The notes under the pieces are model-generated. The model had not been told where the DNA came from. It did not search any database and worked only from the letters and a program-made list of their open reading frames with translations. Positions 9,093-28,966 of a stretch of DNA of 64,000 nt are shown piece by piece. The DNA lies in assembly GCF_030686945.1 (NCBI RefSeq), contig NW_027122708.1, positions 5,674,248 to 5,738,247 on the forward strand. The letters run 5' to 3'. Each line of letters opens with the position of its first letter. Positions within the stretch are counted from its first letter, which is position 1. Source of the DNA: Centruroides vittatus. Lineage: Eukaryota. Made by a program: the position numbers and the translations under genes.

Positions 9093-9117
9093 TAGTCTAT
9101 ATATATATATATATATA

Positions 9118-9531
9118 CACAGTAGAGAACCGAAAATCGGAATCAATTGGGGACTGGGGTTGTTCAGATTAGTGATTTGTTCCGATTACTGATTATGTAC
9201 GAAAAAAATACATTAACCTGTCCGATGTTCAAATTTTTCTCCGTTATGTGTCGCTTCGTGTTGAATTTTTCTCCGTTGTGTGTCGCTTCGTGTTGAATTT
9301 TCGTCAATTTTAAGCCTAACGAAAATTTTTATAATAATAATCGAGGCTATCGTATTGTTAAAAATTATTTCTGCATTTTGTACAAACAAAATAAATATAT
9401 TGAAGAATATAAAAACATGAAAATTATACTTTAGAAGTAAATTTAGTATCAAAAACGTTCAATTCAGCACGACACAGTCCGACTGAAAATCATTCCGATT
9501 ACCGGCGATTCCGATTAACAAGTCTCTACTG
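9118..9531. mobile_element. Tc1/mariner-type MITE inserted in a (TA)n microsatellite.
   Basis: Termini are ACAGTAGAGAACCGAAAATCGGAATC and GATTCCGATTAACAAGTCTCTACTGT (inverted), with TA flanks. There is no coding capacity. Confidence 0.55.
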
Positions 9532-9571
9532 TATATATGTATGTATATATATATTTATAAAATCGAGACGA

Positions 9572-10443
9572 GTTGATGATGATAATAATAATCATAATAA
9601 TAATAATCAGTGCAGAGCCGAAACGGTTAGGAGTTGAAAGTTGAAATTTGGTACACAGTTAGGGTATGTCATGAGAACGCACACTAAGAAGGGATTTTTC
9701 GAAATACCTCCTCATGGGGGAGAGGGACAAAATTAAGGCTTAACACTTCCATCAACAATGGAAGTGTCAAGTAACAATGGAAGTGTTAAGAGAAAGCAAC
9801 GTGCAAGACGCAGATGCAGTTTTTTTAGTTTTTGCGGGAAATTGAACATATTTTTAGACCCATCTAAAAATTCTGTAGTTAGTCTGGAAACAGGGATGAC
9901 CCAATTCTTGCATTCTGCGAAAATGGGTAAGGTTGACTGTAACGTAATAATCTTCATTTTCGCTAAAACAGTTAGGAGTTGAAAGTTGAAATTTGGGACA
10001 CAGTTTGGGTACCAAATTTAAGTACCAAAGTGTTAAGTAACAATGATAGTGTTAAGTAACAATAGAAGTGTCAACAATGGAAGTGTTAAGTAACAATTGA
10101 GAACAAGAGAAAGCGACGTGCAAGATTTACGGGCTCTGGAAAAAAAAGAAAAAAGAAAAAGAGTAATATGTTAGAACATATTCGATTTTCAAATTTAAAC
10201 AGATTAGTTCGGTTTTTCTCAACTTTTCTTCTTTAGAACATTCACTGAAAATCGAATGATATAATCAGAACACATCGTGAAAATTGAACAATATTAGAAC
10301 ATTCAATTTTCAAATTCGACCTTTCTTTAGAAATACTTAGTTTGTTGATGAAATTATTAAGTTATAGTCACAAAAGAAAAAGAGTAATCTTAATTATCAC
10401 TATCGTTACTTTTGCCCGAGCAACGCCAGGCCTACCTGCTAGT
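9572..10443 (+). mobile_element. Helitron-like non-autonomous repeat, copy 2 (rearranged, with a partial internal re-duplication).
   Basis: Same 5' end, A|TCGAGACGAGTTGATGAT. The same body and minisatellite recur at 9962-10135. The same 3' end, ...CCTGCTAG|T, lies at about 10443. Confidence 0.3.
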
Positions 10444-12299: not shown

Positions 12300-12425
12300 C
12301 ATATCTGGTCTCGTCTTTCATCTATCTTACTCCATTCTTGAGATTAAGGAAAGATAGACAGACGGACAGACGATAGTGGGAATTTACAGATCTACAATTT
12401 TTTTCAAATTGCAGCCCAAAAACTT
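12300..12425. repeat. Repeat that shares about 70 bp with 17517-17585, the 5' UTR region of the jockey/I-like LINE remnant.
   Basis: GACAGACGGACAGACGATAGTGGGAATTTACAGATCTACAATTTTTTTCAAATTGCAGCCCAAAAAC against GACAGACAGACGACAGTGAGAATGTACAGGTCTACAATGTTTTCAAATTGCAGCCCAG. Confidence 0.5.
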
Positions 12426-14024
12426 AATTTTCAATATAGTATTTAAATTTACCATTCTTATTACAAATTACATTAATGAACTACTACTGCAGAAATACAT
12501 TAATTCCAATTTACACAGGACTGTTTAATTATAACAACATTAAAAATTGGTACTTTTCTGTTATACCCTTGCATGTATGCAGCACCATTTCACACCACAT
12601 TTAAAAAAGCACTCTATTCAAAAATTCAAAATCAAAATGACAAAGTAATTAGTCAAACATGGACCATTACATTTCCAGAATACCCCTAATTTATTTTATA
12701 TAGTTAAAATTTGATGTTATATAGTTAAACAATAGATTAATATCATGACAAAAGATGCATTCAAAAATTTACTTACTTGCTTTATATTATGCAAATTCCA
12801 AACCTTAATAATTCTATCCTGAGAACAAGTGAATAGGTAATTGTCACAAATACACAAATCATTAATTTTGTCAACATGTATCTAAAAAAAGATAAAATAA
12901 CTAAGTTTAATTGCAAATATCCAATATGGTAGCTGTTTTCTATATTTCCATAAATGTTTAATATGAAAATATTTATTAAAAATTTTATTTTTTCATTAAT
13001 CTGATATTTGTATTTAATAGATTAATATTCTAAATTTTATACAATTCAATTTAATTACATATATTATATAGTGCAACAAGTAATTGTTTAATATCCAAAA
13101 TATGAAAATATCTAACGTGAAAACAATTCCAAAGTTCTTTGAAAATAACAAAAAATAAAAACAAACTGTTTGTAAATAAAAGTGAGCTCCAGCAAATCAA
13201 ATTACTTACAATGAACTTGTAAATAATTTGTGTGTACTGTACTTGGACTTGGTTGTCCAAAAGAACTAGAAAGTAATTTGTAAAGGAGATTTGTAAGCAA
13301 AGCAGTTTGTTTTCACTTTTTGTTATTTTCAAAAAATCTTCCTGTAAACTTTTTTAATTGTATATATAAAAGACTTAAGATTTTTTATTAATTCTTGAGT
13401 TTAGAAAAATTTTAGATATAATTTCATTAGATTTACAATATAGGATACCTCATATTTATATATGAATGTAAACAATCATATCATCAGTAACATCACTAGG
13501 GTTGGTGTCACCCAATGTGATAATTCATGGATTTCTCTTTGTAATACATCATACTAGATCCTTAGTAATATTTTTTCTACATACTAATAGACAAAAAACT
13601 TGCACTGTAACTTACTCCAGCAAGTATTATTTAACGATCAAAAACATTTTTGACCCAGTTGATGGGCCTTCATCAGATATCAAATATGCAATGGTCATTG
13701 AGCATACAAACATTTAAATTATATAGAACATATACAATTTAAATTTAACTTTAAGACATAAATACAACAAAAAAAAAAAAAAATAAATAAAAATTTAACA
13801 TTATAAGATAAAAATAAAAGAATAGGGAATAAATTAACAATATATTGGATGCAAAAATCAAAAATAAAAATACATGTTTAACTAACAAAAAGAACACTTA
13901 GTACTAATGTTTATTTGGTAATTAAACACATGCTATTTACTTGTCTAAGAGGATATTTCTCTACGGTCAATATTTCTATTACTTTCCCGGATATTGTATA
14001 TACATAACAAGAAAAAATGTATTG

Positions 14025-14360
14025 GAATCGTGTCAAATTTGACCCTCCAAGTTTTTTGCAAGTCTCCACATTTTGAGACCTCCTGGACCCAAAAAAGGCA
14101 CAAAAATTCAATGTTTGCATGTGTTGGCATCTATTTTGCTTAATATCTCAGGATGGGGTAATGATAAAAAAAATGAAATTTGACACGATAGATTGCATAT
14201 AAACAACATTGATGCTATTGAATTTTGGTGGCAAAAGGTCAAGGGGTGGGGAGATAGAGAGGGGGTCATGTGTCATATCTTGAGTAGGGTCAGACTTAAT
14301 GATGTTATACTTTATTAGCATTTACAATTTTTTATGAAACCAATCACTACCATTAAAATT
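14025..14360. repeat. Unclassified interspersed repeat (about 340 bp), copy A.
   Basis: Shares TGTCAAATTTGACCCTC...TTTTGAGACC..., ...AATATCTCAGGATGGGG..., ...ATTGATGCTAT.GAATTTTGGTGG... and ...GTCATGTGTCATATCTT..AGT.GGGT..GACTTAA...TTACAATTTTTTA with 43325-43690. Confidence 0.6.
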
Positions 14361-14946
14361 AAGCATTTTGCCATTCAATAATTAAAAATATAAAAATTAT
14401 TTTCTAAATAAGATCTCATAATAGCTGGAAAAGTTATGCAACTTATGCTGGATTTTTTTTCCATCATAAACTAAAATATGGACTATTTGACAAGCAGAGT
14501 GAAAGTGTAAAGCTGATTAGAATTATGACATCATTGCATTATGGCAAAATGTGCTGGTATCCTTGAGCCATGTGATTGCTAGCAAGCACTACTTTTTTCT
14601 TTGTGTTACCAAATCACTTTGCCCTATTCCTTTCAATTAATATATATTTTTAATAACAAACCGTAACAAATACAAGTATAATAAATCTATACTAATTTGA
14701 ATTTTGTAGCTGAATCTATTTCAATTTAAAATTGTGTACAAAAGTATGGCTTTTTGAATTCTACATCATTTACTGATGCAAATTAACTTTTTTTTTTTCA
14801 AAAGATGATAATTTTAATATTTGATTTCAGTTTTATTACTATCTTTAATCTGTGATTAAAAATCATAAAAAAAGTAATTGTCACCCATGAAAAAATAAAT
14901 AGAATATATTATAAACACAAAAAACACATTATTATTAGAAACAGAC

Positions 14947-15264
14947 TTAATGAAGTGTACTCATTGCAGGCAATGTATGTGTATTTATCATGCATGGCTT
15001 AAATGTCATGGGGGTTTCTATATAAGCTCTACCCGCACCTGTGCAGAAGGACTTCCAAGAATCTAGTTTTGCCTTCTTAATGGCCTCCTTATACTGTCTT
15101 TGGTAAGATGAGAGGTACTGCATTCGCAGTTCCTCCCTCCTTTGATCGTGACATCTCTGGAATACTCTGCACAGTCTATTGTTGTTCTGGTGCATAAGAG
15201 ATAAATCCGAATTCCACCATGGAGTTACCCGTCTTTTGTTCTTCCTCCTGGGAATGGATTTCAT
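14947..15264 (-). pseudogene. LINE ORF2 region between the endonuclease and RT domains.
   Basis: RVTPWWNSDLSLMHQNNNRLCRVFQR...YKEAIKKAKLDSWKSFC is typical of non-LTR ORF2 linker regions. Confidence 0.5.
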
Positions 15265-15545
15265 GCATGCAGAAGAGATTTGGAGAATAGCTGACTCAAT
15301 ATAGGCCTTAGCCTCAGTATGTGATACAATCCTAGATGATGGTATACCGATTCGCTGAATACTGTCTTGAAATTTGCACCAATCAGCTGCCTTGGTATTG
15401 AAAACATTCTTATTGTTCGAAGCTTCTGCATCCTGCCAATTATTGCAGCCTAGGCTACAAGTTATACACTCATGGTCAGAGAGGAAGTCAAAAATGCCTA
15501 CCTGCCAATCCTGAATAACAGAGCAGAGGCCTTTGGAACAGATGG

Positions 15546-15908
15546 TCAGATCAATCCAGGAATGACCATTAGATGACGAAAAGATTGGCGAGTATGCAAA
15601 TGCACATTAAAATCACCCAAAATTAAAAAACTACAGTTACTGAAATGAGTCACAGCTGACTCCAAGTTCTGGATGGTTTCATAGATATCTGACCTACTCG
15701 AGCAATAGACGTTGAAGATGATAATGTGTAAATCAGGAAGGCAGACCATACAAATGCAGGTAGATGAACAAAATTTTGGGTGGAAGATAATGGCCAAGGT
15801 AGGGTTAGTAACAATGACAGCCCATGGTTGTTCATCCTGGTTCTGAATGATAATGTCTTTGTTGCTAAAGCAAGCTACCCTATTCTCGCAACAATAGGGC
15901 TCCTGCAC
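15546..15908 (-). pseudogene. LINE AP-endonuclease domain fragment.
   Basis: Motifs IIFNVYCSSRSD and SFLILGDFNVHLH. Confidence 0.6.
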
Positions 15909-16129
15909 TAAAGCGATATAGTTGTTAATCTATCGGAGCTGAGAGCTGGCAGAGATTGCTCGTTCCAGATTAATCCGTACAATGCATAGTTGAGAGTTCC
16001 TACAGCAAATGTCAGTATTTCTGTTAGATGCCATAGTCTATTCTGGCAAGGAGCTGTGTTCTTGATCGAATAAAGGCAGGAGAGACTTTATTGAGCGCAT
16101 TGTGATCTATTTTCTTATTATTCTCTCTA

Positions 16130-17308
16130 ATGCAGTTCATACATTTTTGAGTTTCTGTTTTCTTATCACAATCTTTGAAGGCATGATTGCTTCCACACTA
16201 ACTGCATGTACAATCTTCTGCATCGCAATTCTTGGCGAAATGCCCAAATTTTAGGCATTTCAAACATTGATTCGATGGGAGGAAGTCTACAACACTATAC
16301 CTAGTCTACTGCAAGTTCACCTTCTCCTCTTTTAGGAGGAAACACCTGAGACCTCTGCAACCCAAGAAATGAGAGTGGTACTATGCCGTCCAATTGGGAA
16401 AAGCACCCTAATCTTCTCCAGAAATGCTTCTTTGGAATATAACACAGCAACTTGGCTGTTCTGCTCATAAATGGCATCTAAGAGCTGGTCCCTCTCAATA
16501 GATTTAGGTACTGAGATAATCTTGATCAGTGGGCGCCTCTTTTTCAGGATAACCGAACATAAACTGGAAACCTCAAACAGCATTACATAAAATTCCCACA
16601 TCTGCTGTACATCCCAAATCAACAGCAATCCCTCCTTTTTGAATATGGCATATTCTCTGAACACCTATTTTTAAGCTGTGTGGATTGATTCCAGAAGTTA
16701 GGACCCTTTCTGGTAAGCTCAGAGTCATTAGACTCAGGGTTACTGTACACCAGTACAGTGTGACAAAACTTGGAGGGTACTGAAACCGAATCCAAGGTAG
16801 AACAGGATGCTTAACAGTGTCACTATAAAACTTGGGTGTCCTGGACACCACTGACCCTGAAGCTGGTACAACCTGCTGCACTCCACGAATGGTTTCCAAC
16901 ACCTGAGATAACTGTGCCCATTCTCTCGGCATGTGCAGCAAATGCATCAGTGAGATCACCAACCACTGACCCAGATGCTGGAACTACCTGCTGCAATCCA
17001 TGAATGGCCTCCAAGACCTCAGAGAAAACCAACTCAGATCTCTCTGCATATGCAGCAAACGTGCCAGAGAGATCCCCCTTGGTGAGAAGTGAATCCAACC
17101 AAGTGTCAATGGAATCAGGAACAGAACAAGTTGACACTGTGGAACTTGCTAGATCAATCAATCGCTGGAACTGGACAGTTATAAGCCGCGAATGGGCTCC
17201 CGAGCCCAACTTCCTATTGCTATTTCTAGCAAGGTAACCCTTAAGCTCGTCGAGGAGCTTGAATGCCTCATAAAGAAAGTTTGATGACTGTCCATTGCCA
17301 TCAATCAC
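16130..17308 (-). pseudogene. LINE ORF1 (gag-like), degenerate, with internal sequence repeats and C-terminal CCHC knuckles.
   Basis: Three overlapping frameshifted ORFs. The motif LQQVVPASGSVV occurs twice. Zinc-knuckle codons lie at about 16150-16300. Confidence 0.45.
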
Positions 17309-18593
17309 TCACAAAAGTACTAAGTAACGCAAGCTACCCTGATTCCAATCAAGACTGTAGTCTTGCAGCAAAAACACGACAACACAAATGAGAACTTAAC
17401 TAATAAATTATAAAAATGCACTCTTAAGTGCACAACTAGCTTAATTATACAAAAAAGAAAGAAAGAAAAATCAAATGAAAGATAAATGCAACAATGAGAA
17501 TAAAAACGTTCATTAAGGAAAGACAGACAGACGACAGTGAGAATGTACAGGTCTACAATGTTTTCAAATTGCAGCCCAGTAAATGTTAGTACTAAGTATT
17601 ACATGACTTGCATTTAGCAACATTCTCCATGTAAGTTAAATTTCATGAAATTATTTCTATGCAATGGATAAAGTATCTGCAACCTGGTAGACAGCACAGC
17701 ACAACAATTTTATATTCATTTAGGTGTCACCCTCTCTGATAGTGTCATTCAGTGTGGTCTTTACCCCTAGTGATGCCACTGTCTATCATATATACAGTAT
17801 AATACAAGTATAATAAATCTATAAAATTTCAGTCTTATCATTTTTATTTAATTTTCTAACTATATAATGCTTTTAAATTATATTATATTGTTAACCTGAT
17901 ATTGATAAGTTTCATTTTCTGACAAAATATATAATGATCCATTATTCTTTCCAATATAGCATTTTTCATCATGAAGAATACATGCACTTGGCCAACTGTA
18001 TTCATCATTGTTTTCTTTCCATAATTTTGCTTCTTGCTAAAATTTTACAAATTATTTGTATTAAGGATTGTTTAAAAAATTTTTTTTTATATATTTTGAA
18101 AATAATAATAATAATAAATGTATATCTACATTGTTTGATCTGCATGGCATCATTAAAATATTTCCTGAAATATCAGTTACATATAATTCATCTGTTTTTG
18201 ATAAGGCAATATTCATAATCCAATTGTTTGACCTAAAAAATAAAATTGAAACATAATACAAAAGGAATCATAAAACTTATAATTTAAAAAAACAGAAATG
18301 CTATATAGCAGTATTATGTTATATTTTAAATATCAAGTGTAGTTTTGGTATATAATTCTAATTCAAATTTTCAAGTGTTCAGGAATACTGATATATAATA
18401 TTTTGATAAATCATTCAACAGAAATGATTCAAGAACTGTATTATATTATGGTGTGCTGTGCTGAAAAGTTTGCAACTTCTCCTAGATGAAAAGAGAAATA
18501 CCAGTATGATAAACTGAATATATTTTATTCAATATAATCACCCTTAACTCTACACAATATACTCCAATTTTTTTAATCCCTGCAAAAAGAATT

Positions 18594-19600
18594 CCTAAGG
18601 TTGGTCAACCCTCTGATTTTTTTGTGTAATTTGGAGAGCTGTGTGGCAGAGGTGTTACCTCTCAGAGCAGCACATCTTGACCCAGTTTCTCCTTCAAAGC
18701 CTCCTACAATTCATCCAATAGAGACCTGGATAAGTAGTGTTAATTTAGTGTAGTCAACACTGAATTAACACCACTTATCAACTAGTGAATTAACACTGAT
18801 TCCCTAGCCCTCAGCAGATACTTGACTAAATTGATGCCATCCTTGTCTCAAAACAGGAAAGCCATGATTTTTCTGGATGAATTCTGGGCATTCTTTGGCT
18901 ATGGAGATCCTCTACAACACCATTTCTTTGATTGTTTCTTCATCTCAGGATTATAGTGATGAAATCACATTTTATCCATTGTCACTAATTGGGCTAAAAT
19001 CTCAGTACCATCATAGAACCTTGCCAAAAGACTTTGAAGGCAATCATGTGATTCTACTTGTGGTCTGCATTGAGAAGTTTTGTAATCCATTTCACAGGAA
19101 GCTTTCACACGTTGAGAATGTCAGATTACATGGAAACCCTTTAGAGAGAAATCTGCAAGATTTCAGCAAATGTCTTCGACAATCTTTAAGGATCAGATCA
19201 TGTGAACAGATAAAAATGTGGATTTCATCCACATCATCTGTTGTTGTTGAAATGGACCATCCAGAGTGCTCAACTGTTAACCTGAAATGGCTATTTTGAA
19301 AATATGTAATGAGGGAAGGGCAGTCCTGCCATACAGTTATCAACATCTCAGAGTCAATTTCCTGCATTCCTTTCTCCTGCAGTCACAAGAACTTCATAGC
19401 TAGACTCTTCTAAATGTTGCTAAATTCTGATCTTGGTGCAGCCATCATGAATTCAAATTGTTGAAATAAGCAAACTAATGATTGTAACAGACTTATGGTG
19501 CATGCACTCTTTCAAGACTTCTATTATTTTCATAGTGTGGCTTTTTCTCTCTTGCATCTGGATAAAGTTATCAACTTTTCAGCACTCCACACATACTGTA
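18594..19600 (-). mobile_element. Mariner-like element, degenerate (frameshifts and stops). The 3' TIR is recognisable and the 5' end is eroded.
   Basis: Minus-strand frames read TYFQNSHFRLTVEHSGWSIS (compare WFxKFRSGDFSLEDEPRSGRP), LARFYDGTEILAQLVTMDKMWFHHYNPEMKKQSKKW (compare IVTGDEKWxxYxNPxxK) and a C-terminal ..RCAALRGN. The plus strand at about 18594 reads TAAGGTTGGTCAACCC, which resembles the mariner TIR TTAGGTTGGTGCAAAAG. Confidence 0.6.
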
Positions 19601-22600
19601 TATAGTTTTGTCTAAAATTGTTATATGCATACACTAAAATTATTGTACAGTTTTAAAAATTAAGTTCTTGGTTATTAATAATATAAATATAGCATAAGTT
19701 TCTATAATTCATATTTATATTGCTCAAATATTTTTGATATGCTACAATCATCCTCTGGAACAGCAGTCTGAATTATAATAGAATATACTTGTAAGCTGGG
19801 AAAAAATTTGAAAATTCACTGACACAGATAAAAATTTTTCCTTAGATTTTTATTTACAGTATCTATCAATAATAACATAAAACATTTATTTGGACAAAAA
19901 TAAAAATTTCTTTTCACACAACATGACCAAAAATGAATTGGCACAAGTTAGACAAAAAATTGTTTGAAATGCAAAAAATAAACAAAAACTTAAACATATT
20001 CCTATTGCCTATAATTAAGCTTAAATCTATTAGGGCCCAAAGATTTAGATAGCCAGGTTAGTAAAAAGGTCAATAAAGTTATGATAGATTGAGGAAAGAG
20101 CAGTTGAAAGTAATTCTACTTTCTTTTTCTAAAAGGGTCGTACAAACTCTGAACTTTTCTTCTTTATCTGTGCTGCATCTAGTATGGTTGTATATGTCCC
20201 TTGGCTTCAATAGTAGGTGATCCAAGTTGAGAAAAATCCTGTTTTCTTTTCTTTTAGTGGAAACTAACACTCATACAAAACTTAGGGGTCAGTCAACTGA
20301 GGTAATACCTTTTTTGACGAAAAATTTGTTGTGTCCACTCATATGGATTCTCAGTCCTTCATTGGCCTTCCCACATGCCCATCTTACCTTCTTCCTCTGC
20401 CGCAAGCACACCAAAAGTGATCCTTCCTCCTTGACATTGTCCTGTGATACTTTTTCTTCTTGGAAGTACTACCTGAGGCCAATATTTGGAAAAGCTGGAT
20501 GCACAAAAGACCAGAAGTAGCCCATTTTGAGAGGTGAGAGTCCAGAGAGAAGGGAAAAAAAAGCTTAAGCCATATACAAAAGCAAAAAATCACCACAGAA
20601 CTATATCTTTAGTGTCATTACTTTGTCTCTTTCATACCATAGGAAAAATGAAGTCACAAGGCAGAATTGACCTTTTTCTTGAGGCTCTTCCCTGTCTCAA
20701 TATGTAAAGTTTTCTTCTGTTTGTGTATATATATATATATATATATCTAAATTCAAATTAAATTCAAAGTAATTATTGTTAGCATAAAATAGTTTTATGC
20801 TAACAATAATGTGGAGATGATATTCTAGATCAATTTCTGCAGCTGATATCAATGGTCAGGTAATGCTAACGTTGCTTGATCATTGGTACACTACCTGTTA
20901 ATAAATCTGAAAAATTTGTTAAATTTTTAAAATACTGTAATTTGAAATACATTCTTATATATATATATATATATATGTACAGGGTGTTTTGAAAGTCCTG
21001 TTACAAACTTATAGGGCAGATTCCTTAAAAAAAAAAAAAAAGAATAAAAGAAACACTATAATAAAAACATTCAGTAACATTTTTCAAATAAAACCTTTAT
21101 TAAGGAGTTAGGAATTTAAAGTTAAGTGATGTCACTTCTGAGTTTTTGTATAAATAAGAACAAATTCATGTTTTATTCTTTTATTTAAATTGAAAGGCAT
21201 TTAAGAAAAGAATAAGTAAATTCATCTTAAAATTTTGTACTTTATATTTGTGTATTTGAAAGTAATGTTCTTTTTATAAAAATGTGTAATACTTCTTAGG
21301 CATTTGTTTTGTTTTGCATCCTGATTCCATACAAGAGCTGATCAATATAATGACTTCCAATTCTATGCAAACATAGTACCGGCAAAGCATGTTCTGGTAT
21401 ATCCACTCAAAAATACCTGATGTGTGTTAAATTTCTTGTGCTGAGACTATAATTTGTACAAGCAGATCTTCCTCCAACTCTACAGGAATCTTGTAAATAA
21501 GACTCATGTGATCCCAAAGAAAATATTGGAGTTTAATGAAAATAAAACATTATGATAAAAAGTATGCATATATTTTTAAAATGCTTTCAGATGCAACGAA
21601 TTCCAGAAGTGCATTATAGTGCTTTAAACATCTTTAATAAAAACTTTATTCCAAAAAATGTTACTGAACAGTTTTATCTTTGTTTTTCTTAAAGAATCTG
21701 TCCTATAAGTTTGTAATAGGAATTTCAAAACATCCTGTATATATATATTATATTATTATATATAATTGAATTATAATATATATATATTATATATTATAAT
21801 TCAAGCTGTTCCTGAGGGTAATTTGACTGTAATACATTGAAAGCATTTGAGTAGTATAAATATGAATTATATACATTTGTGTTATATTATGTTATTAATA
21901 TCAAAAAACTGAATTTTTAAAATTATGCAAAGCTTAATATGATGATAATCCATCTAGCTGAGAAATTATATTCAATAATATAAAAGAAACTTTAACTGAG
22001 ATATAAATTCTGTAATATGATGATATAACTCCTACTGTTACATATTATTTCTTTAATTAAAAAATATATTAAAGTTTTTATAATTGAAAACTTTGAAATG
22101 AAAGGTGAGAACTGATAAAATTTCTTCAAATTTTACTGGTTTAGCATAGGTTAGGAATTATAATTTCTTTATAGTTCTGAAAATTAATATTAACTATAAT
22201 AAAAATCAGAAGTAGCACAAATTAAATTTAGTTAACAATAGTATAATTTGAGAATACAGAATGTAAATTTCAATTTACCAGTAGAATTTCTTGAAATATA
22301 ACTGATTTATCACCTTTCATTTCAAAAGTTCTTAATTATTTTATTTAAAAATAAATTTCGTATTCATACATTTTAATGATTCTTTGACTTTTCAAATAAT
22401 TATCAGTTATCATAACTGACCCAGATTTAAGGCCAATTACTATATTTTTTCTGCCTGCATTCATTGATGATACTTCTTCATCCAAATAATAAGATTGTAA
22501 TTCACTATAAAAAATAATATAACATGTAAGATTAATTAATAATATTACAAAGGTGATTCTAAATTATTGATAGAGTTACTGTAATTTTCCAACCAGAAAC

Positions 22601-23001
22601 AACTGAAAAATTAGAGATCCAAGTGCATATAATTTTCCAATTATATGCCCTTGACCCTCCATGGCATTCAGACAACTTAAGCTAAGCTTTTATCCTGGCA
22701 TGATATAGGCTGTAAATCCTCACCTAATTGTTCATGGGCAATTACATGAAAGTTTTGCCTATTTTAATGTTGTCTATTACAGAATAGTGAAATGGATGCT
22801 TGATCACACTAAAAATTTTCCATCATAAGTGAATTGTCCAATAGCAGATGAAATTAGAATTTCCAACAATTTTAAGTCCTTCCAAAATTTTTGTCTGTAT
22901 ATTATTATTATTATGTTGGGTTAAGTGAGATATACTCGGTTAACACCGGTGGCTGTGTACTATGCCGGACCAAAGTCAAGGCATAGTAACCAAAACAGAA
23001 A

Positions 23002-23411
23002 TTAAAGAAGTGTATCAGTGTGTGTGTCTGTATTCAGGAATTTTCTCACAATATGACATGTATTCAATATAGTGGCCTTCTGTAGTATGATGTATGTGTT
23101 TCTATTCAATTGTAACGTGCCCAGGCTTTTGTGTAGTGTGTGTGGTATCACACCTGTAGAGGAGAGAACAACAGGTACAATAAGCACCCTATCCATCCTC
23201 CACAGATGCCTTATTTCCTGGACAAGTTCTGTGTACTTGCTAATTTTTTCAGTGCATGCGTTTTGTATATTGTGAGTGTTGAAGTGAACTCACTCAGCAA
23301 AATTAAATCACAACAACAGGTACAATAAGCACCCTATCCATCCTCCACAGATGCCTTATTTCCTGGGCAAGTTCTGTGTACTTGCTAATTTTTTCAGTGC
23401 ATGCGTTTTGT
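23002..23411 (-). CDS. LINE ORF C-terminal tail, lying downstream of the nested PLE unit and partly duplicated in tandem.
   Basis: The minus frame reads NTHNIQNACTEKISKYTELAQEIRHLWRMDRVLIVPVV (once in each tandem unit), then LSSTGVIPHTLHKSLGTLQLNRNTYIILQKATILNTCHIVRKFL to a stop near 23002. EK..KY supplies the missing K of the PD..D..EK motif. NTHNI is repeated on both sides of the insertion. Confidence 0.5.
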
Positions 23412-23456
23412 ATATTGTGAGTGTTGAAGTGAACTCACTCAGCAAAATTAAATCAC
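23167..23456. repeat. Tandem duplication of 2 x 145 bp spanning the left junction of the PLE unit.
   Basis: The two units at 23167-23311 and 23312-23456 are near-identical, with one G/A difference. Each contains the TSD 14-mer, the 28-bp leader and the first ~5 bp of the inverted repeat (atcacaa). The duplication therefore post-dates the insertion. Confidence 0.85.
23412..23425. repeat. Putative 14-bp target-site duplication (left copy), ATATTGTGAGTGTT.
   Basis: Identical 14-mer occurs at 24712-24725. On the minus strand both copies encode NTHNI of the interrupted LINE ORF. Confidence 0.6.
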
Positions 23457-23806
23457 AAACAACCAAACACCTTAAGTTGCTGAGAAAAATTTAATAAATA
23501 ACAAACGTTTTCAGCCAAATCTGTTGGCCATCATCAGGTTAAACAAATTCGAATGCAAACACAAAATGGAACAAAAAATTTAAATACAAATAAATAAAAT
23601 AACGGATAAAATATACATATAAGAAAGTAAAAATTAAATATAAATAACAAAAATACTGTATATAAAAAATATGTATAGGTTAAATAATAAACTACACGAA
23701 ACTCTAATAAATGCAAGAAGTGCATTTATCAATAAATTATACGAAATTCTGACAAATACAAGATATGCAGTGATAACAAAACCAAGGCATTAAATTAAGA
23801 GCGGAT
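23454..23806. repeat. Left arm of the 353-bp inverted repeat flanking the GIY-YIG ORF.
   Basis: Reverse complement of 24359-24711. The two 63-aa pseudo-ORFs at 23534-23725(-) and 24440-24631(+) are identical, which confirms near-100% identity over at least 192 bp of the arms. Confidence 0.9.
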
Positions 23807-24370
23807 ATGATAACCACACTAATCAAAAACTACAGGAATAACAAAACAAAAGCTCAAGGAGGGGATTTCCGCAAATTCACAAAGTTCACGTATGACAGAA
23901 AGAAAGAAGCTATCATGAAGGAAATCTCAGCCCGCAAAAATACCAAGTTAATTTTCAAGAGGGCTCCCAACTTGTACAAATTATTAAGGAACGACAAAGA
24001 CCGTATTGATAAAGAAAGAATGGCTGGAGTGTACAAAATTCCTTATGAAAACCAAGAACTAGGCATTAATAAAAACTACATTGGAGTTACTAATAGAAGC
24101 TTAGGGATTAGATTGAGGGAGCACAAATACAACATCAGCAAAAGATCTAACGCCACAATTCTATCTCAGATGGCACAGGTTGAAGGCTCGGTAGTCAAAT
24201 GGGGTGAAGCAGACATCATTAAATCTGTACACTCACCGACTTTAGCGTTTTGCGCCGAAAAAATTGAAATATTTAAGAGCAGATTACATAATGCCTGCAT
24301 TAATGCCAGGGATGCTGAAGGGTTGCCTTCGGCATGGAAATATTTAATTAAGAGGTTTGATAGCTCTTAA
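23807..24370 (+). CDS. GIY-YIG endonuclease domain of the Penelope-like-element type (187 aa). The start codon is probably fortuitous.
   Basis: The catalytic motif is GVYKIPYENQELGINKNYIGVTNRSLGIRLREH (GIY..YIG..R..EH). The upstream linker reads LIFKRAPNLYKLLRND. The C-terminal region reads ATILSQMAQ...IIKSVHS...AEKIEIFK...INARDAEGLPSAWKYL. Together these match the conserved layout of PLE endonuclease domains. The CxxC linker finger is absent. Confidence 0.8.
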   Translation: MITTLIKNYRNNKTKAQGGDFRKFTKFTYDRKKEAIMKEISARKNTKLIFKRAPNLYKLLRNDKDRIDKERMAGVYKIPYENQELGINKNYIGVTNRSLGIRLREHKYNISKRSNATILSQMAQVEGSVVKWGEADIIKSVHSPTLAFCAEKIEIFKSRLHNACINARDAEGLPSAWKYLIKRFDSS

Positions 24371-24711
24371 TTTAATGCCTTGGTTTTGTTATCACTGCAT
24401 ATCTTGTATTTGTCAGAATTTCGTATAATTTATTGATAAATGCACTTCTTGCATTTATTAGAGTTTCGTGTAGTTTATTATTTAACCTATACATATTTTT
24501 TATATACAGTATTTTTGTTATTTATATTTAATTTTTACTTTCTTATATGTATATTTTATCCGTTATTTTATTTATTTGTATTTAAATTTTTTGTTCCATT
24601 TTGTGTTTGCATTCGAATTTGTTTAACCTGATGATGGCCAACAGATTTGGCTGAAAACGTTTGTTATTTATTAAATTTTTCTCAGCAACTTAAGGTGTTT
24701 GGTTGTTTGTG
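24359..24711. repeat. Right arm of the 353-bp inverted repeat flanking the GIY-YIG ORF.
   Basis: Reverse complement of 23454-23806. Its terminal ~20 bp overlap the last codons and stop of the truncated LINE ORF. Confidence 0.9.
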
Positions 24712-24725
24712 ATATTGTGAGTGTT
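24712..24725. repeat. Putative 14-bp target-site duplication (right copy), ATATTGTGAGTGTT.
   Basis: Pairs with 23412-23425. Confidence 0.6.
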
Positions 24726-25557
24726 TGGAATGGCTATGTCTATAATGTATGTGATTTTATTGTGTTTGTCAATGAGTGTGATGTCTGGTCTGTTGTGGTA
24801 AATTGTTTTATCTGTGATTATGGCTCTGTCATAGTACATTTTGTGCGTGTTGTTTTCCAATACTGTCTGCAGAATGTATTTGTAGTATGATTCGTGGATG
24901 TCTACTAATTTGTGTTTCTTTGCAAGCTCTTGGTGTATTATATTTGCTACTTGGTTATGTCTGTGTAAATAATCTGTCTGTGCCAAGAGCTTGCAACCAG
25001 AGGTGATGTGTTGTATAGTTTCTGACATAATGTGACATTTTCTGCATGTGTCATTTGTGAGTGTTGCATCTTTGAGTATGTGTTTTCTGTAGTTTTTAGT
25101 ATTTATGATCTGATCCTGTATGGCAATCATGAATCCTTCCGTCTCCCCAAAGAGGCATCCCCGAGCTAACCAGCTGTTTGACGCAGTTTTGTCAACAAAT
25201 ATCCTGGGCCAGATCATAAGGATGCCTGCCATGGAGTGCCTTTCGAGCCCACGATTGCTTAATGGTGTCTATGCTTTTTATATGTTGTGTTGTGTCCATA
25301 TGATGTGAGTGTAAGTTTAATGGTGTGTTATTCGAGTCTGCTAGAGTTACTGCTTTATGTAATTGTGATATTTCTTGTTTTTCATAAAAAAACTCTCGCA
25401 GTGACTGTATTTGTTTGTAATGAAGGTTAACTATGTCAATCAGGCCACGTCCGCCATCTTTACGTGGAAGGATTAATCTTTCTGTGGCAGATTTAGGATG
25501 ATGATGTTTATGCTTAGTAAGTGTTGTTCTTGTTTTCCTTTGGAGTTGCTCAAGATC
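24712..25557 (-). CDS. LINE ORF continuation: thumb, CCHC zinc-finger motif and the N-terminal half of the PD-(D/E)xK restriction-like endonuclease.
   Basis: The frame resumes directly after the 25558-26352 insertion (IHWTHTDLEQLQRKTR..LILPRKDGGRGLI). The listed 180-aa ORF 24690-25232 contains CRKCHIMSETIQHITSGCKLL..YLHRHNQVANII and RPDITLIDKHNKITYIIDIAIPNTHNI, then runs 7 codons into the inserted inverted repeat and stops. Confidence 0.7.
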
Positions 25558-26352
25558 TGTGTGAGTCCAATGTATTGTGGCCGTCGGCCATGATATTGTA
25601 TATTTTGTATATTTTATATTGAATTAGTCTTAGATTTTCTTTGTTCCTTTGTCTAACTCTTTCTAGAACTTTCTTTGTCTAACTCTTTCTAGAACTTTCT
25701 TTTGTCTAACTCTTCCTAGAACTCTCTTTGTCTAACTCTTTGCCCTTGGGGGAGGATTATCTTTCCCTCAATAGTAAGAACAAAAGAGGGAGTGAGGCCC
25801 TGAAGCAAAACAGACAGAAAGAGTGCGAGTCTGGGTTGGAATCCCGAAGAGGTAGGAGCTGAAAAGGAGTGCTCCAGAAAGGGAGAAGGGTGATCTAAGA
25901 GGATAAAGTGCAGAGAGAGATCATCGAGGAAAGACGACTCAGTCTGAAAGAAAAAGATTATAGACGAAAGATCTATAAGGAAAAGGGCTACAAACGTAAC
26001 AAAAGAGAGAGATCCGAAGTTGTTCCCCACCAAAAGACACATCGCAAAGAAACCCGGGTATTTCTACTACTTTTCTTATCTTTCCTTATTTCTTCTATTC
26101 TTTCAATTTCTTTTAGTTTTAAGTTAGTATAAGTTAGTGTAAGTGAATACGGTCCTCGTCAGATTGTCGCGTGTGTGCAAGATAACTGTTTTTTGAGGAC
26201 AAATATTTAATGCCTATATATATATTAAATTCTGGAAGTTGTAAAGTTGGGATCCTATGTAAAGAACCTGTTCAGAGAGAATAAAACTACTTTGTATTAA
26301 GTTTTATTTTGTACCATTTCGCTCGCGGGATCGTGTACCTCTTGTTACGAAC
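25558..26352. mobile_element. Solo-LTR-like repeat, copy 1, nested inside the LINE ORF between the RT and thumb domains.
   Basis: Starts TGTGGCCGTCGGCCATG and ends ..CGCTCGCGGGATCGTGTACC..GTTACGAACACCA. It carries TGTG..CACA-type termini, and GTAT on both flanks is a possible 4-bp TSD. It shares about 60-70% identity with two further copies at 49532 and 57971. The LINE frame is continuous across it (ILWC|IHWTH). Confidence 0.45.
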
Positions 26353-28966
26353 ACCATAGTATAACTCCAAAAGAATATGTGAGTACTGGGATGACATATG
26401 TGTTTATTGCTTTAACTGTGTGTTTTGCATTTAACTGTGTTCTGAGAATAGCATTTAACCTACTTTGGTATTCTTTAATTAATCTTTGCTTTATTTGTGT
26501 ATGTTCTGTTAGTTTGGCCTGTTGGAATCCTAAATACTTGTAGAACTCGCCCTCTTCCATGGATTCAATAATGTCTCCATTTCCAAGCGCAAAATCTTCT
26601 TTCTTCAGGATTCCTTTTTCTATGTGAACTGTTTTGCATTTATCTAGGCCAAATTCCATTTGTATGTCCTTGGTGTATGAATGTGTGATTTGTAGGAGTC
26701 GATGAAGTTGTTTTTGTGTGGATGCATAAAGTTTTATGTCATCCATGTACATGAGATGTGACAGTGTATACTGTGTTGTTTTTTCGTGTCTGATATTGTA
26801 GCCATATTGTGTGTTGTTTAACATGTTGGATAATGGATTCAAGGCTAGGCAGAACCAGAGAGGACTCAAGGAATCTCCTTGAAAAATTCCTCGCCTAATA
26901 AAGATTTGGTTTGTTTGTATGGAAGTGTTATGAACCCTGAGATGTAGTGTTGTTCTCCAGTGCTGCATGGTGTTTTCGAAGAATGTAACGAGTGATGGAT
27001 GTATTTTGTACATGTGTAGAATATGTAGCAGCCAACTGTGTGGAACACTGTCGAATGCTTTTCTGTAGTCTATATATGCCATGTGTATGTTTCTGTGTTG
27101 TTTGTGTGCTTGCCGTAGAATGACTGAATCTATGAGTAACTGTTCTTTGCATCCCCTGTGGTTTCTACGGCCACCTTTTTGTTGTTCCGTTAGAATGTCG
27201 TGTTCTTCAACATGTTTGTATATTTTGTTTGCAATACAGGATGTCAATAATTTGTAGAGTGTTGGAAGACATGTAATTGGTCTGTATTGTGTGGGGTCTG
27301 TGGTATTGTTGTTTTTAGGTTTCATGTAGGTGATGCCTTGAGTAAGAAAATTTGGCATGTCTTGTGGATTGATGATGATGTGTGTTAGGTGTTTAGCTAG
27401 TTCCTGGTGCAGTGATGTAAACTTTTTGTACCAGAAATTGTGAATGTTGTCTACACCAGGTGTCTTCCAGTTGTGTGTTCTGTTAACAGTGTATTGGAAA
27501 TCACGTATGCTTATTTCAACACAGGGCATAGTTGGTATGTTGTGCAAGTTTTTGTTCTCCTCCTCGATCCAGCCTGCTTCAGCATTGTGCGTGACAGCAC
27601 TGGACCAAAGAGAAGACCAATATGTTGTGAGTTCTTCTTCTGTTGGTGTGCCACTGTGCTGTGTATCAGTGTTTGCTTTGTTATTAATTTGTCTGTAAAA
27701 GAGTTTTTCATTGTTTGTAAATAATTTATTTTGTTGTTTTCGTAGTGTACATGTTTTGTATCGTTTGAGTCTACGTGCTTTGGCAGCAAGTTGTTGTTTT
27801 AGTGTATCAATGTATTCTGTAATGCGTGTGTTGTGACGTTCATGTTTTGTGTGTGTTTTTATTTTCTTGAAAATGTTTTTGAGCTGTTTCCTTAATTTGG
27901 GTGTTATGTTGTTTTTAGTGTATTGTGTCAGCCTGCCTAATTGCTGTCTAATGTCATTTATTTGTGTTTCTATTCTTCTCTGCCAGGCAGGCTTGTGATA
28001 GAATTGTATTTTCTGTGTATTTGTCTGTGATTGTACTTTCAGTCCATGGTGTGTCACTACTGTGACTGCCCCAGCATAAACTAATGTATGAATGTCTGCG
28101 AGTGTAGAAATTGAATGAATGTAGTGTGGTAGTAAGTGAGTGTTTACATAATTTAGTGTTTTTCCTATTTCCTTTGACGTGTTGATTTTTGGTATTCGTG
28201 GTCTTTGTGTGGGATCTGTGCCTGTATATTTAGTGAGTGTTTCCTGAAATATAAGTGAGAGCGTATTAACTAAATCCATGTCTATGTTATCAGTGATGGA
28301 TGAGGAAGTGTCTGTAGTATCATTAGTGCTAATTGTTGTATGTGTGTTATTATCAATGTTTGTTACTGGATTATCCTGACAGGTTACATGATCTTCATTA
28401 ATGTTAGATGTTTCTGTCTGTTGATGTATTTGATCAGCAACCTGTTGTTTGATAAGTTCAAGTGTTGTTTGTGGAATAAGGTTGTTGTGTATAATTGTTC
28501 TTTTTTGATCAACAACCCTTTGTTCGGTGACAGTGAGATGAGGATATTGTTGTGTGAATCTATGGTATAGTTGTTGTCTGTATGCTGTCATGTTTGTTTC
28601 GAGTTTTGTGATGGTGTAGTAAGTACGGATGATAAACTCGTTCATTTCTATCGTCCATTTCATCCGTTGGCGTGGTTTTCCAGCCTTTGTGGTCTGTGGA
28701 TGCATTGCCACAGAAACACCAAGGCTGGGTTGGTTCCTCACATCTGTTGAGGGCATTGCAGTAGCCATGCTTGGGCCGGTGCTGCTTTCGCCACCGGTAA
28801 CCAAGGGAGACTGTGGCCTATTTTTCGAACGTGAGCCTCTGCCTAACCCACGAACGCGGACCTTGTTAACCCGGGCGACGTCCGAGCCGGTATCACATTT
28901 GGATCTGGTTACTACCATGATACGTATCTCCACAGAATGTGGGTGTGTGGTCACTCTTAGCTTCAT
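26345..28966 (-). CDS. LINE ORF: N-terminal region plus reverse-transcriptase domain. The stop codon at this point belongs to the nested LTR-like insertion.
   Basis: 873-aa ORF carrying RT motifs (KAFDSVPHSWLLHIL, FQGDSLSPLWFCLALNPLS, YMDDIKLY). No AP-endonuclease domain is present. A 5' UTR of about 130 bp precedes the ATG. Confidence 0.85.
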   Translation of the reverse strand: MKLRVTTHPHSVEIRIMVVTRSKCDTGSDVARVNKVRVRGLGRGSRSKNRPQSPLVTGGESSTGPSMATAMPSTDVRNQPSLGVSVAMHPQTTKAGKPRQRMKWTIEMNEFIIRTYYTITKLETNMTAYRQQLYHRFTQQYPHLTVTEQRVVDQKRTIIHNNLIPQTTLELIKQQVADQIHQQTETSNINEDHVTCQDNPVTNIDNNTHTTISTNDTTDTSSSITDNIDMDLVNTLSLIFQETLTKYTGTDPTQRPRIPKINTSKEIGKTLNYVNTHLLPHYIHSISTLADIHTLVYAGAVTVVTHHGLKVQSQTNTQKIQFYHKPAWQRRIETQINDIRQQLGRLTQYTKNNITPKLRKQLKNIFKKIKTHTKHERHNTRITEYIDTLKQQLAAKARRLKRYKTCTLRKQQNKLFTNNEKLFYRQINNKANTDTQHSGTPTEEELTTYWSSLWSSAVTHNAEAGWIEEENKNLHNIPTMPCVEISIRDFQYTVNRTHNWKTPGVDNIHNFWYKKFTSLHQELAKHLTHIIINPQDMPNFLTQGITYMKPKNNNTTDPTQYRPITCLPTLYKLLTSCIANKIYKHVEEHDILTEQQKGGRRNHRGCKEQLLIDSVILRQAHKQHRNIHMAYIDYRKAFDSVPHSWLLHILHMYKIHPSLVTFFENTMQHWRTTLHLRVHNTSIQTNQIFIRRGIFQGDSLSPLWFCLALNPLSNMLNNTQYGYNIRHEKTTQYTLSHLMYMDDIKLYASTQKQLHRLLQITHSYTKDIQMEFGLDKCKTVHIEKGILKKEDFALGNGDIIESMEEGEFYKYLGFQQAKLTEHTQIKQRLIKEYQSRLNAILRTQLNAKHTVKAINTYVIPVLTYSFGVILWCS

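What the first reader, a model, noticed from the sequence alone, without database searches (positions are those of the whole stretch)
23412..24725. Stand-alone GIY-YIG (Penelope-type) endonuclease ORF between near-identical 353-bp inverted repeats, inserted in the endonuclease domain of a Dong-like LINE
A 1.29-kb unit (28-bp leader, 353-bp repeat arm, 564-bp ORF, inverted 353-bp arm) is flanked by a 14-bp direct duplication, ATATTGTGAGTGTT. It splits the LINE PD..D..EK endonuclease codons exactly (..IIDIAIPNTHNI | QNACTEKISKY..).

The ORF carries the full PLE endonuclease signature: GVYKIP..YIGVTNRSLGIRLREH, then ..AEKIEIFK..INARDAEGLPSAWKYL. There is no RT anywhere nearby.

The arms are near-identical (one G/A difference seen in the 145-bp units), which argues for a recent origin. 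One reading is a 5'-truncated PLE with an inverted pseudo-LTR, a configuration reported for Penelope. The alternative is an undescribed TIR element mobilising only a GIY-YIG nuclease.

A 353-bp perfect hairpin carrying an intact nuclease ORF is also a likely piRNA/siRNA trigger.
Basis: partly seen in the sequence, partly recalled or inferred. Interest (0 to 1): 0.8.

Follow-up and report, generated by a model that had tools for sequence, protein, structure and literature searches.

The report
Truncated Penelope-like retroelement, head-to-head double copy
This is a dead, 5'-truncated insertion of a Penelope-like retrotransposon, made of two back-to-back partial copies that look like terminal inverted repeats around a nuclease gene; this arrangement is well documented for these elements, not a new kind of transposon.

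Summary
Two 351-nt arms are 100% complementary (23452-23802 and 24363-24713). They enclose a 187-aa ORF (23807-24370). A 14-bp target duplication (ATATTGTGAGTGTT) flanks the unit. Removing the unit restores the host LINE's endonuclease reading frame.

The "stand-alone nuclease between TIRs" reading does not hold.
- Residue 1 of the ORF aligns to an internal position of scorpion (Centruroides) proteins that continue upstream into reverse transcriptase.
- All nine long relatives tested carry RVT_1 N-terminal to the matched region.
- Each arm is the element's 3' end. Each carries a PLE-type minimal hammerhead motif, supported by compensatory changes in relatives.
It sits at one end only and shares a conserved core (TTTGCTGAGT) with relatives.
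- A Centruroides locus (L002) has the same layout: 13-bp TSD, a 30-nt tail at one end only, and 403-nt inverted arms. Its arms have a different inner boundary, and RT sequence lies between them.

This matches published PLE structure and the in vitro finding that a PLE enzyme extends both target strands from two adjacent start sites.

The nuclease lacks the canonical CCHH cysteines, and relatives carry DKT/RWK motifs, which points to the Hydra-like PLE clade.

A 145-bp tandem duplication carrying a solo tail remains unexplained. Overall this is an ordinary finding of low interest.

The parts
23412..23425 (.). Left copy of the 14-bp target-site duplication ATATTGTGAGTGTT
   Evidence: Removing the unit and one TSD copy restores the LINE ORF.
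23426..23451 (-). 26-nt PLE 'tail' (sense: TTAATTTTGCTGAGTGAGTTCACTTC). It is present only on the inverted copy and marks the outer reverse-transcription start.
   Evidence: It is absent from the right end. Its core TTTGCTGAGT is conserved in the tails of L002 and L004. The tail concept comes from PMC8557442, PMC3846280 and PMC11167929.
23452..23802 (-). Inverted 5'-truncated PLE copy: 351 nt, comprising the last 8 nt of the ORF plus the 3' pLTR-like region. This is the left 'arm'.
   Evidence: 100% complementary to 24363-24713. Homologous at DNA level to the 3' ends of the Centruroides PLE copies L001, L002 and L004.
23503..23537 (-). PLE-type minimal hammerhead motif in the inverted copy
   Evidence: It is identical to the motif in the right arm.
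23803..24713 (+). Direct 5'-truncated PLE copy (911 nt): the EN-coding remnant plus the 3' region, ending at the inner RT start site
   Evidence: Homology to RT-EN proteins begins at the breakpoint 23802/23803.
23807..24370 (+). 187-aa residual ORF: the C-terminal linker and GIY-YIG endonuclease module of a PLE polyprotein. Its ATG is a chance internal codon.
24026..24304 (+). GIY-YIG core (ORF residues G74 VY .. Y91 IG .. R97/R102 .. E105 H106 .. E151/E154 .. N166). There are no cysteines between GIY and YIG.
24363..24713 (+). Right 'arm': the 3'-terminal 351 nt of the direct copy
24628..24662 (+). PLE-type minimal hammerhead motif: CUGAUGA-U-[GGCCAA CAGAU UUGGCU]-GAA-AACGUU-U. The predicted cut is after 24662.
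   Evidence: [quoted passage not shown] Rfam does not detect it.
24712..24725 (.). Right copy of the 14-bp TSD. Its first 2 nt are ambiguous with the element end.
23167..23456 (.). Two 145-bp tandem units. Each holds 106 bp of LINE, the TSD sequence, the tail and ATCAC. Unit 1 therefore carries a 'solo' tail plus 5-7 nt of the PLE end at 23281-23313.
   Evidence: The units differ at one position (23222/23367). The origin is unexplained.
23002..28966 (-). Host: a degenerate RLE-type LINE with RT, a CCHC-like motif and PD..D..EK. The PLE interrupts it at 23426-24711, and a ~757-bp insert interrupts it at 25597-26353.

Best explanation
The unit is one dead-on-arrival insertion of a C-terminal-EN Penelope-like retroelement (PLE). 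By its motifs it is Hydra-like. It inserted into the coding region for the restriction-like endonuclease of an already defective LINE.

It consists of two 5'-truncated copies of the PLE 3' end, joined head to head:
- a 377-nt inverted copy (351 nt plus the 26-nt tail);
- a 911-nt direct copy that still holds the last 187 codons of the polyprotein (linker plus GIY-YIG nuclease).

Proposed mechanism. Apart from the stagger (step 1), the steps are inferred, as marked.
1. A PLE RT-EN enzyme made by an autonomous copy elsewhere cut both target strands 14 bp apart. The stagger is shown by the TSD.
2. Both 3'-OH ends primed reverse transcription near the 3' end of PLE RNA. The top-strand primer started at the outer start site, so that copy includes the tail. 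The bottom-strand primer started at the inner site, 26 nt upstream, so that copy lacks the tail and shares a 2-nt AT overlap with the target. This is inferred. It matches the in vitro behaviour of an Anolis PLE, which extends both strands from two adjacent start sites with the tail lying between them.
3. Both cDNAs stopped early, and each was completed by copying the other at 23802/23803. This is inferred end-to-end template jumping.

The 'TIRs' are therefore a by-product of integration. The ORF is a recent remnant that has not had time to decay, not a gene of a TIR element. The copy lacks RT, so it cannot move on its own.
For: (1) Truncated ORF. Window residues MITTLIKNY.. align with internal ..AITGMVKRY.. 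of Centruroides proteins. Those proteins continue about 150 aa upstream through HFLDI/KPTH and YVDD. In tblastn and blastp, homology starts within 1-4 codons of the breakpoint.

(2) Family architecture. The profile search gave 6255 hits, and long hits (600-865 aa) match only at their C-terminal ~280 aa. All nine long hits tested have RVT_1 upstream. P0082 passes the Pfam GIY-YIG cut-off.

(4) The arms are the PLE 3' end.
- They are homologous at DNA level to the regions downstream of the EN stop in L001, L002 and L004.
- A hammerhead motif with the idiosyncratic PLE features is found only in the two arms of the 64-kb window. Chance expectation is 0.045 per window.
- In 4 sequences, helices I and II are 94-96% paired. 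Four pairs change on both sides, and 2-4 of 500 shuffles reach the observed values.

(5) The tail. It is at one end only, 26 nt long, with a conserved core shared with L002 and L004.

(6) An independent example. L002 has a 13-bp TSD, a 30-nt tail on the inverted copy only, and 403-nt arms with 3 mismatches. Its arms start about 127 nt inside the ORF, compared with 8 nt here. RVT_1 (4e-10) lies between its arms.

(7) The TSD and exact restoration of the LINE ORF.

(8) Literature.
- PMC8557442: an inverted 5'-truncated copy adjacent at the 5' end, and a 30-40 bp tail at one end.
- PMC3846280: the same in rotifer PLEs, with TSDs of 8-10 bp.
- PMC11167929: both strands are cleaved and extended, with two RT start sites that define the tail.
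- PMC4209133: hammerheads in pLTRs, sometimes as pairs on opposite strands.
Against: - Only one copy of this exact family is available, so genome-wide behaviour was not checked. The exact ORF is not on record and the source organism is unidentified.
- Pfam GIY-YIG does not hit the ORF itself.
- Rfam finds no hammerhead, even on a 136-nt stretch.
- A PDB sequence-profile search finds no GIY-YIG protein.
- The model is of moderate quality (mean pLDDT 60.7).
- My hammerhead descriptor was written after seeing the motif, so its chance estimate is optimistic.
- The junction between the two copies shows no microhomology or palindrome, whereas L002 has a 15-bp junction palindrome.
- The 145-bp tandem duplication with a solo tail is not predicted by the simple model.
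Confidence: 0.9

Rival explanations
1. It is a previously undescribed TIR-bounded element whose only gene is a GIY-YIG nuclease acting as its transposase.
For: Perfect 351-nt inverted repeats, a 14-bp TSD, and an intact 187-aa ORF starting 4 nt after the left arm.
Against: - The ORF's first residue is homologous to an internal position of RT-EN proteins.
- The ends are asymmetric, with a 26-nt tail on one side only.
- The right arm contains the ORF's stop codon.
- In the related locus L002 the arms have a different length and a different inner boundary, and they enclose RT.
- The arms carry a retroelement hammerhead motif.
- No second copy exists in the window.
Confidence: 0.02
2. An ordinary single 5'-truncated PLE insertion acquired its inverted arm later, through fold-back replication or repair or through gene conversion, rather than during integration.
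For: The arms are 100% identical, while the adjacent tandem units differ at one base. There is no junction palindrome.
Against: - The 14-bp TSD flanks the whole unit, including the inverted copy.
- The inverted copy ends in a bona fide tail that the direct copy lacks, so it cannot have been copied from the direct copy.
- The same layout recurs in L002 and is described as typical of PLEs (PMC8557442, PMC3846280).
Confidence: 0.04
3. The hairpin-shaped unit is a non-autonomous PLE derivative that is copied as a unit in trans, or it supplies free EN.
For: The EN ORF is intact. pLTR sequences are sufficient for mobilisation in trans in rotifers (PMC3846280). Non-autonomous PLE-derived families exist (PMC8557442; bioRxiv 10.64898/2026.07.22.740005).
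Against: - Only a single copy is seen here.
- The truncation point is arbitrary, inside a conserved helix.
- The intact ORF is expected from the insertion's youth (0 differences in 351 nt).
- A transcript across the unit would form a 351-bp perfect hairpin.
Confidence: 0.03
4. It is an assembly artefact, a chimeric fold-back read.
For: Perfect inverted repeats are a known artefact class, and PLE structures are known to trouble assemblies (PMC8557442).
Against: - A unique 560-nt centre.
- A tail present on one side only.
- A precise TSD and restoration of the host ORF.
- The same architecture in an independent genome.
Confidence: 0.01

Closest known systems
Penelope-like elements with an inverted 5'-truncated copy and a one-sided tail (D. 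virilis Penelope; Pen2a_Av and 5'-truncated Pen2 copies of Adineta vaga; Naiad)
   Same: Shared features, with sources (PMC8557442, PMC3846280, PMC4209133):
- 5' truncation.
- An inverted partial copy abutting the 5' end, so that inverted repeats flank the unit.
- A tail of about 30 nt at one end only.
- A short TSD of variable length.
- A hammerhead motif in the terminal repeat.
   Different: - This copy is so truncated that only the EN remnant is left, with no direct upstream pLTR.
- The tail is 26 nt, against the quoted 30-40 nt.
- The EN lacks the CCHH cysteines that define the Penelope/Poseidon, Neptune, Nematis and Naiad ENs.
Hydra clade of C-terminal EN+ PLEs (Craig et al. 2021, PMC8557442)
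   Same: - C-terminal GIY-YIG EN without the CCHH motif.
- The nearest long relatives carry DKT (P0014, P0017, P0046) and RWK (P0014, P0017) instead of DKG and GxKF/Y.
- A hammerhead motif is present.
- Both known target sites contain a short TA-rich core, TATATT.
   Different: - There is no CxCX5C linker motif. The linker has no cysteine at all.
- The targets are not (TA)n microsatellites.
- The nearest relatives are in terrestrial scorpions, whereas the clade was described from aquatic invertebrates.
- No phylogeny was built here.
In vitro integration by the Anolis Poseidon PLE (PAc; Frangieh et al. 2024, PMC11167929)
   Same: Both target strands are cleaved and extended, and reverse transcription starts at two adjacent internal sites with the tail lying between them. 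The two ends of this insertion look exactly like one product of each start site, one on each strand.
   Different: It belongs to a different clade. The start sites here are inferred from a genomic footprint and were not measured.
Twin-priming 5' inversions of mammalian L1 (own knowledge: Ostertag and Kazazian 2001)
   Same: The second target strand is also used as a primer, which gives a 5' inverted segment inside one TSD.
   Different: In L1 the inverted part is a different, more 5' segment of the same RNA, so no repeat results. Here both parts start at the RNA 3' end, which gives an inverted duplication.

Membership tests
EN+ Penelope-like element (PLE) | The ORF belongs to a protein family in which a PLE-type RT is fused to a GIY-YIG EN | tested here: met
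   Relatives extend upstream into RT. All nine long relatives tested have RVT_1 N-terminal to the matched C-terminal module. L002 gives RVT_1 at 4e-10.
EN+ Penelope-like element (PLE) | This copy itself encodes RT (an autonomous copy) | tested here: not met
   No PLE RT is found anywhere in the window. The copy is truncated at 23802/23803. The literature describes truncation as a high degree of 5'-truncation among PLE insertions (PMC8557442), so this does not argue against membership.
EN+ Penelope-like element (PLE) | GIY-YIG nuclease fold with the GIY, YIG, R, H, E and N positions | tested here: met
Canonical PLE EN (Penelope/Poseidon, Neptune, Nematis, Naiad) | CCHH Zn-finger with two cysteines between GIY and YIG | tested here: not met
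   The spacer GVYKIPYENQELGINKNYIG has no cysteine. The same holds for all close relatives and for 55 of 108 top representatives. More distant hits have the CxxC.
EN+ Penelope-like element (PLE) | Hammerhead ribozyme motif in the terminal repeat (pLTR) | tested here: met
   The motif is at 24628-24662 (+) and 23537-23503 (-). It has the PLE-specific extra nucleotide, a 6-bp helix II and a palindromic helix III (PMC4209133). It is conserved, with compensatory changes, in L002, L001 and L004. Rfam does not detect it, and self-cleavage was not tested.
EN+ Penelope-like element (PLE) | [quoted passage not shown] | tested here: met
   The 26-nt tail is on the inverted copy only. It is homologous to the 30-nt tail of L002 and to the tail of L004.
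EN+ Penelope-like element (PLE) | 5' truncation, with an inverted 5'-truncated copy adjacent and a short variable TSD around the whole unit | tested here: met
   The equivalent structure in L002 has a 13-bp TSD.
Hydra clade of PLEs | DKT instead of DKG, and an RWK motif in the RT | tested here: inconclusive
   The motifs are present in the nearest long relatives P0014 and P0017, and DKT is also in P0046. They cannot be tested in this RT-less copy, and no phylogeny was made.
Hydra clade of PLEs | Linker with a CxCX5C motif upstream of the EN | tested here: not met
   There is no cysteine in the ~75 residues upstream of GIY in the window ORF, nor in the linker of P0014 or P0017.
Hydra clade of PLEs | Insertion into (TA)n | tested here: inconclusive
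   The targets are GTATATTGTGAGTGTT (window) and GCTATATTATGTC (L002). They share TATATT but are not microsatellites. Only two sites are available.
TIR (class II) transposon | Symmetric, defined terminal inverted repeats and a complete transposase ORF, conserved among copies | tested here: not met
   The termini are asymmetric because of the tail. The inner arm boundary differs between the window and L002. The ORF is an N-terminally truncated fragment.
RLE-type (R2-group) LINE as host | RT followed by a C-terminal CCHC-like motif and a PD-(D/E)xK nuclease | tested here: met
   RVT_1 at 5.6e-31. The reconstructed C-terminus carries CRKCH..H..C and RPDITLIDK..IIDIAIP..TEKISKY. It is colinear with relatives of 1150-1250 aa. 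Assignment to the 'Dong' clade was not tested.

The most novel reading that the evidence does not exclude
The EN-only hairpin unit might be more than debris. It could be a non-autonomous PLE derivative that is re-copied as a unit, or it could express a free-standing, CCHH-less GIY-YIG nuclease acting in trans. Separately, the 145-bp duplication carrying a solo tail could be the footprint of an aborted and restarted reverse-transcription initiation. That would be an in vivo record of a PLE integration step that has not been described.
Probability: 0.04. Interest if true: 0.55.

Novelty: new member of a known kind. Interest (0 to 1): 0.15.

Why it matters
It matters little as a discovery. It is a textbook example of how PLE integration produces structures that mimic TIR elements or 'stand-alone' nuclease genes, which is useful as a warning for annotation.

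It has modest value as a clean in vivo footprint. The empty site can be restored exactly. One end sits at each of two start sites 26 nt apart, on opposite strands. This agrees with the 2024 in vitro model of PLE integration.

It also shows that CCHH-less, Hydra-like PLEs with minimal hammerheads occur in a scorpion genome (Centruroides) and in the unidentified source genome of this window.

Tried and rejected
- Pfam on the 187-aa ORF gave no family at E<=0.1.
- Rfam E-value scans of 22800-25200 and of 24590-24725 gave no hammerhead. The motif was found only with my own descriptor, so I treat it cautiously. It is, however, backed by conservation and covariation.
- A PDB sequence-profile search with A1 gave no GIY-YIG protein, only weak unrelated hits.
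- Exact-protein look-ups found nothing on record for the window ORF, P0001, P0003 or P0006. Other copies of the same family could therefore not be retrieved.
- I tried to identify the organism through the LINE RT. The best hits are <=52% identical, from Lepidoptera or unnamed assemblies, so the organism remains unidentified.
- The terminal stem-loop, folded as a single sequence, is not significant (z = -0.55). I keep it only as a conserved-pairing observation.
- L001 shows no inverted arm. L005 was fetched but not analysed.
- I looked for an ORF start inside the arm, as in pLTRs that include the first codons. The ATG at 24631 runs into a stop after 7 codons, so this gives no support.
Full report
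**1. What is in the sequence**

The region holds a 351-nt perfect inverted repeat, with arms at 23452-23802 and 24363-24713 and 560 nt between them. A 187-aa ORF lies at 23807-24370 on the + strand. The right arm begins 8 nt before the ORF's stop codon, so the arm contains the end of the coding sequence. The breakpoint between the left arm and unique sequence is 23802/23803, 4 nt before the ATG. An in-frame stop lies 10 codons upstream.

ATATTGTGAGTGTT occurs at 23412-23425 and at 24712-24725. Between the left copy and the left arm lie 26 nt (23426-23451) that have no counterpart at the right end. Joining 1..23280 to 24726.. gives an uninterrupted LINE C-terminus (..RPDITLIDKHNKITYIIDIAIPNTHNIQNACTEKISKYTEL..). 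This is colinear with a 1159-aa LINE relative. The unit is therefore a real insertion with a 14-bp target-site duplication (TSD).

The arms are 351 nt rather than 353. No other copy of the arm or of the unit exists in the window.

**2. The ORF is a truncated fragment, not a stand-alone gene**

The closest database proteins come from the scorpions Centruroides vittatus and C. sculpturatus, with up to 66% identity. In the alignment, the window's first residues (MITTLIKNY) match an internal stretch of those proteins (..GYRKSAITGMVKRY..). The relatives continue about 150 residues further upstream, through HFLDI..KPTH..LYIP and, in P0008, YVDDIFILW. By tblastn and blastp, homology starts within a few codons of the breakpoint.

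A profile search of 1.84 billion representatives found 6255 relatives. Every long one (600-865 aa) matches only over its C-terminal ~280 residues. All nine long ones tested carry Pfam RVT_1 just upstream. P0082 passes the GIY-YIG gathering score.

The ORF itself is not recognised by Pfam. Three lines still support a GIY-YIG fold:
- The GIY, YIG, R, H, E and N positions are invariant or nearly so in the family.
- The AlphaFold model is confident over that core (pLDDT 76-86), though its mean is only 60.7.

**3. The arms are the element's 3' end, and the 'leader' is the PLE tail**

The arm sequence is homologous at the DNA level to the regions just downstream of the EN stop codon in three Centruroides loci, L001, L002 and L004.

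Each arm carries a hammerhead motif, in sense orientation relative to its own copy: CUGAUGA-U-[GGCCAA-CAGAU-UUGGCU]-GAA-AACGUU-U (24628-24662 on +, 23537-23503 on -). [quoted passage not shown] That paper also notes pairs of such motifs on opposite strands a few hundred bp apart.

Rfam does not report the motif. My own descriptor finds it nowhere else in the window, and expects 0.045 chance hits per 64 kb. That estimate is optimistic because I wrote the descriptor after seeing the motif.

Independent support comes from conservation. In the four-sequence alignment the core is invariant. Helices I and II are 94-96% paired. Four pairs change on both sides (for example A-U/A-U in the window against U-A/G-C in L002), and only 2-4 of 500 shuffles reach the observed values.

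The 26-nt 'leader' (sense TTAATTTTGCTGAGTGAGTTCACTTC) shares the core TTTGCTGAGT with the extra 30 nt at one end of L002, and shares TTGCTGAG with the 3' end of L004. It is therefore element sequence. It corresponds to the optional 30-40 bp 'tail' described for PLEs (PMC8557442, PMC3846280).

**4. An independent locus with the same layout that retains RT**

L002 comes from C. sculpturatus KZ493984.1. Its features are:
- inverted arms of 403 nt with 3 mismatches (4963-5365 and 6921-7323);
- a 13-bp TSD, GCTATATTATGTC (4920-4932 and 7323-7335);
- a 30-nt tail (4933-4962) on the inverted copy only;
- the hammerhead motif in both arms.

Two differences from the window are decisive. The arms of L002 begin about 127 nt inside the EN coding sequence, rather than 8 nt. 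The 1.56 kb between them encodes RT, since the two ORFs concatenated give RVT_1 at E 4e-10.

So the outer ends are conserved and homologous, while the inner ends are arbitrary. That is what 5'-truncated retro-copies predict, and it is the opposite of what a TIR element predicts. It is shown here at the level of a related family, not for the same family in the same genome.

**5. Mechanism**

[quoted passage not shown] A purified Anolis PLE protein cleaves and extends both target strands. It starts reverse transcription at two adjacent internal sites, and the tail is the sequence between them (PMC11167929).

Read against that work, this locus is one integration event:
1. The two target strands were nicked 14 bp apart. 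This is shown by the TSD.
2. The top-strand 3' end primed at the outer site, so that copy includes the tail and reached 377 nt.
3. The bottom-strand 3' end primed at the inner site, so that copy lacks the tail, shares a 2-nt AT overlap with the target, and reached 911 nt.
4. The two cDNAs were joined at 23802/23803, each strand completed by copying the other.

Steps 2 to 4 are inference.

The arms are identical (0 differences in 351 nt), which suggests a recent event. That is enough to explain why the EN remnant is still open. The copy has no RT, so it cannot move by itself. A transcript across it would fold into a 351-bp hairpin.

**6. Which PLE clade**

The EN has no cysteine between GIY and YIG. 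The same holds for all close relatives and for 55 of 108 top representatives, while more distant hits have the canonical CxxC. The CCHH motif is described as universal in Penelope/Poseidon, Neptune, Nematis and Naiad, and as absent in the C-terminal-EN clade Hydra (PMC8557442).

The nearest long relatives carry DKT (P0014, P0017, P0046) and RWK (P0014, P0017) instead of DKG and GxKF/Y. These are the Hydra hallmarks. However, the Hydra linker motif CxCX5C is absent, and the two known targets share only TATATT rather than being (TA)n repeats. I therefore call the element Hydra-like, without a phylogeny. 'Penelope-type' is imprecise.

**7. What remains unexplained**

Immediately left of the insertion, a 145-bp segment is duplicated in tandem with one mismatch. 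The segment holds 106 bp of LINE, the 14-bp target sequence, the tail and ATCAC. As a result, a solo tail plus 5-7 nt of the PLE end sits at 23281-23313. It rejoins LINE sequence at a 2-6 nt microhomology.

Three explanations are possible:
- an aborted first initiation that looped back onto the target and restarted at the same site;
- later replication slippage;
- two hits at one site.

One locus cannot decide between them, and L002 shows nothing similar.

**8. Verdict**

The novel TIR-element reading is rejected. This is a new member of a known kind, with a structure already described for PLEs, and it is of low interest.

Noticed in passing
window 23167-23456: A 145-bp tandem duplication with 1 mismatch. 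It re-copies 106 bp of LINE, the 14-bp target sequence, the 26-nt PLE tail and ATCAC, leaving a 'solo' tail at 23281-23313. This may be the footprint of an aborted and restarted initiation, or later slippage.
   Followed up: partly
window 23426-23500 (- strand); L002 4933-5010; L004 ~14225-14280: A conserved 8-bp pairing, CUC(A/G)GCAA with UUGCUGAG, links the end of the arm to the tail. It is fully paired in all three sequences that carry a tail, with one A-U to G.U change. The inner RT start lies in the loop. The single-sequence fold is not significant (z -0.55).
   Followed up: partly
window 62287-62624: A second copy of the same LINE's 3' end, 88% identical (62287-62456, - strand), directly abuts a 5'-truncated EN fragment of a different PLE family (62457-62624, + strand). 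The junction is about 66-80 bp from the equivalent of the first insertion site and in the same relative orientation. This may be a preferred target region or a coincidence.
   Followed up: partly
window 4-171 (-), 45675-46314 (+), 63807-63998 (-): Three further divergent PLE endonuclease fragments are present, and no PLE RT is found anywhere in the window. PLE 3' remnants are therefore common in this genome.
   Followed up: no
window 25597-26353: A ~757-bp non-LINE insert lies inside the host LINE between RT and the C-terminal domain. It includes a 26-bp x3.6 tandem repeat (25647-25741). There is also a frame break in the LINE near 25200. The nature of the insert is unknown.
   Followed up: partly
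L002 5345-5381: A 15-bp palindrome with a 6-nt loop (CTCCTATAAATCTGC AACCTT GCAGATTTATAGGAG) sits exactly at the junction of the inverted and direct PLE copies. Such palindromes are described for rotifer PLEs and attributed to self-priming. No such palindrome is present in the window copy.
   Followed up: no
window 23409-23425 and L002 4918-4932: The two independent target sites share the core TATATT (GTATATTGTG against CTATATTATG). This is a possible weak target preference of this PLE lineage, based on only two sites.
   Followed up: no
L001 11063-11142: An ~80-nt near-perfect palindromic hairpin scores below threshold against several miRNA families on both strands. It is probably a small foldback or MITE-like repeat and is unrelated to the finding.
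   Followed up: no
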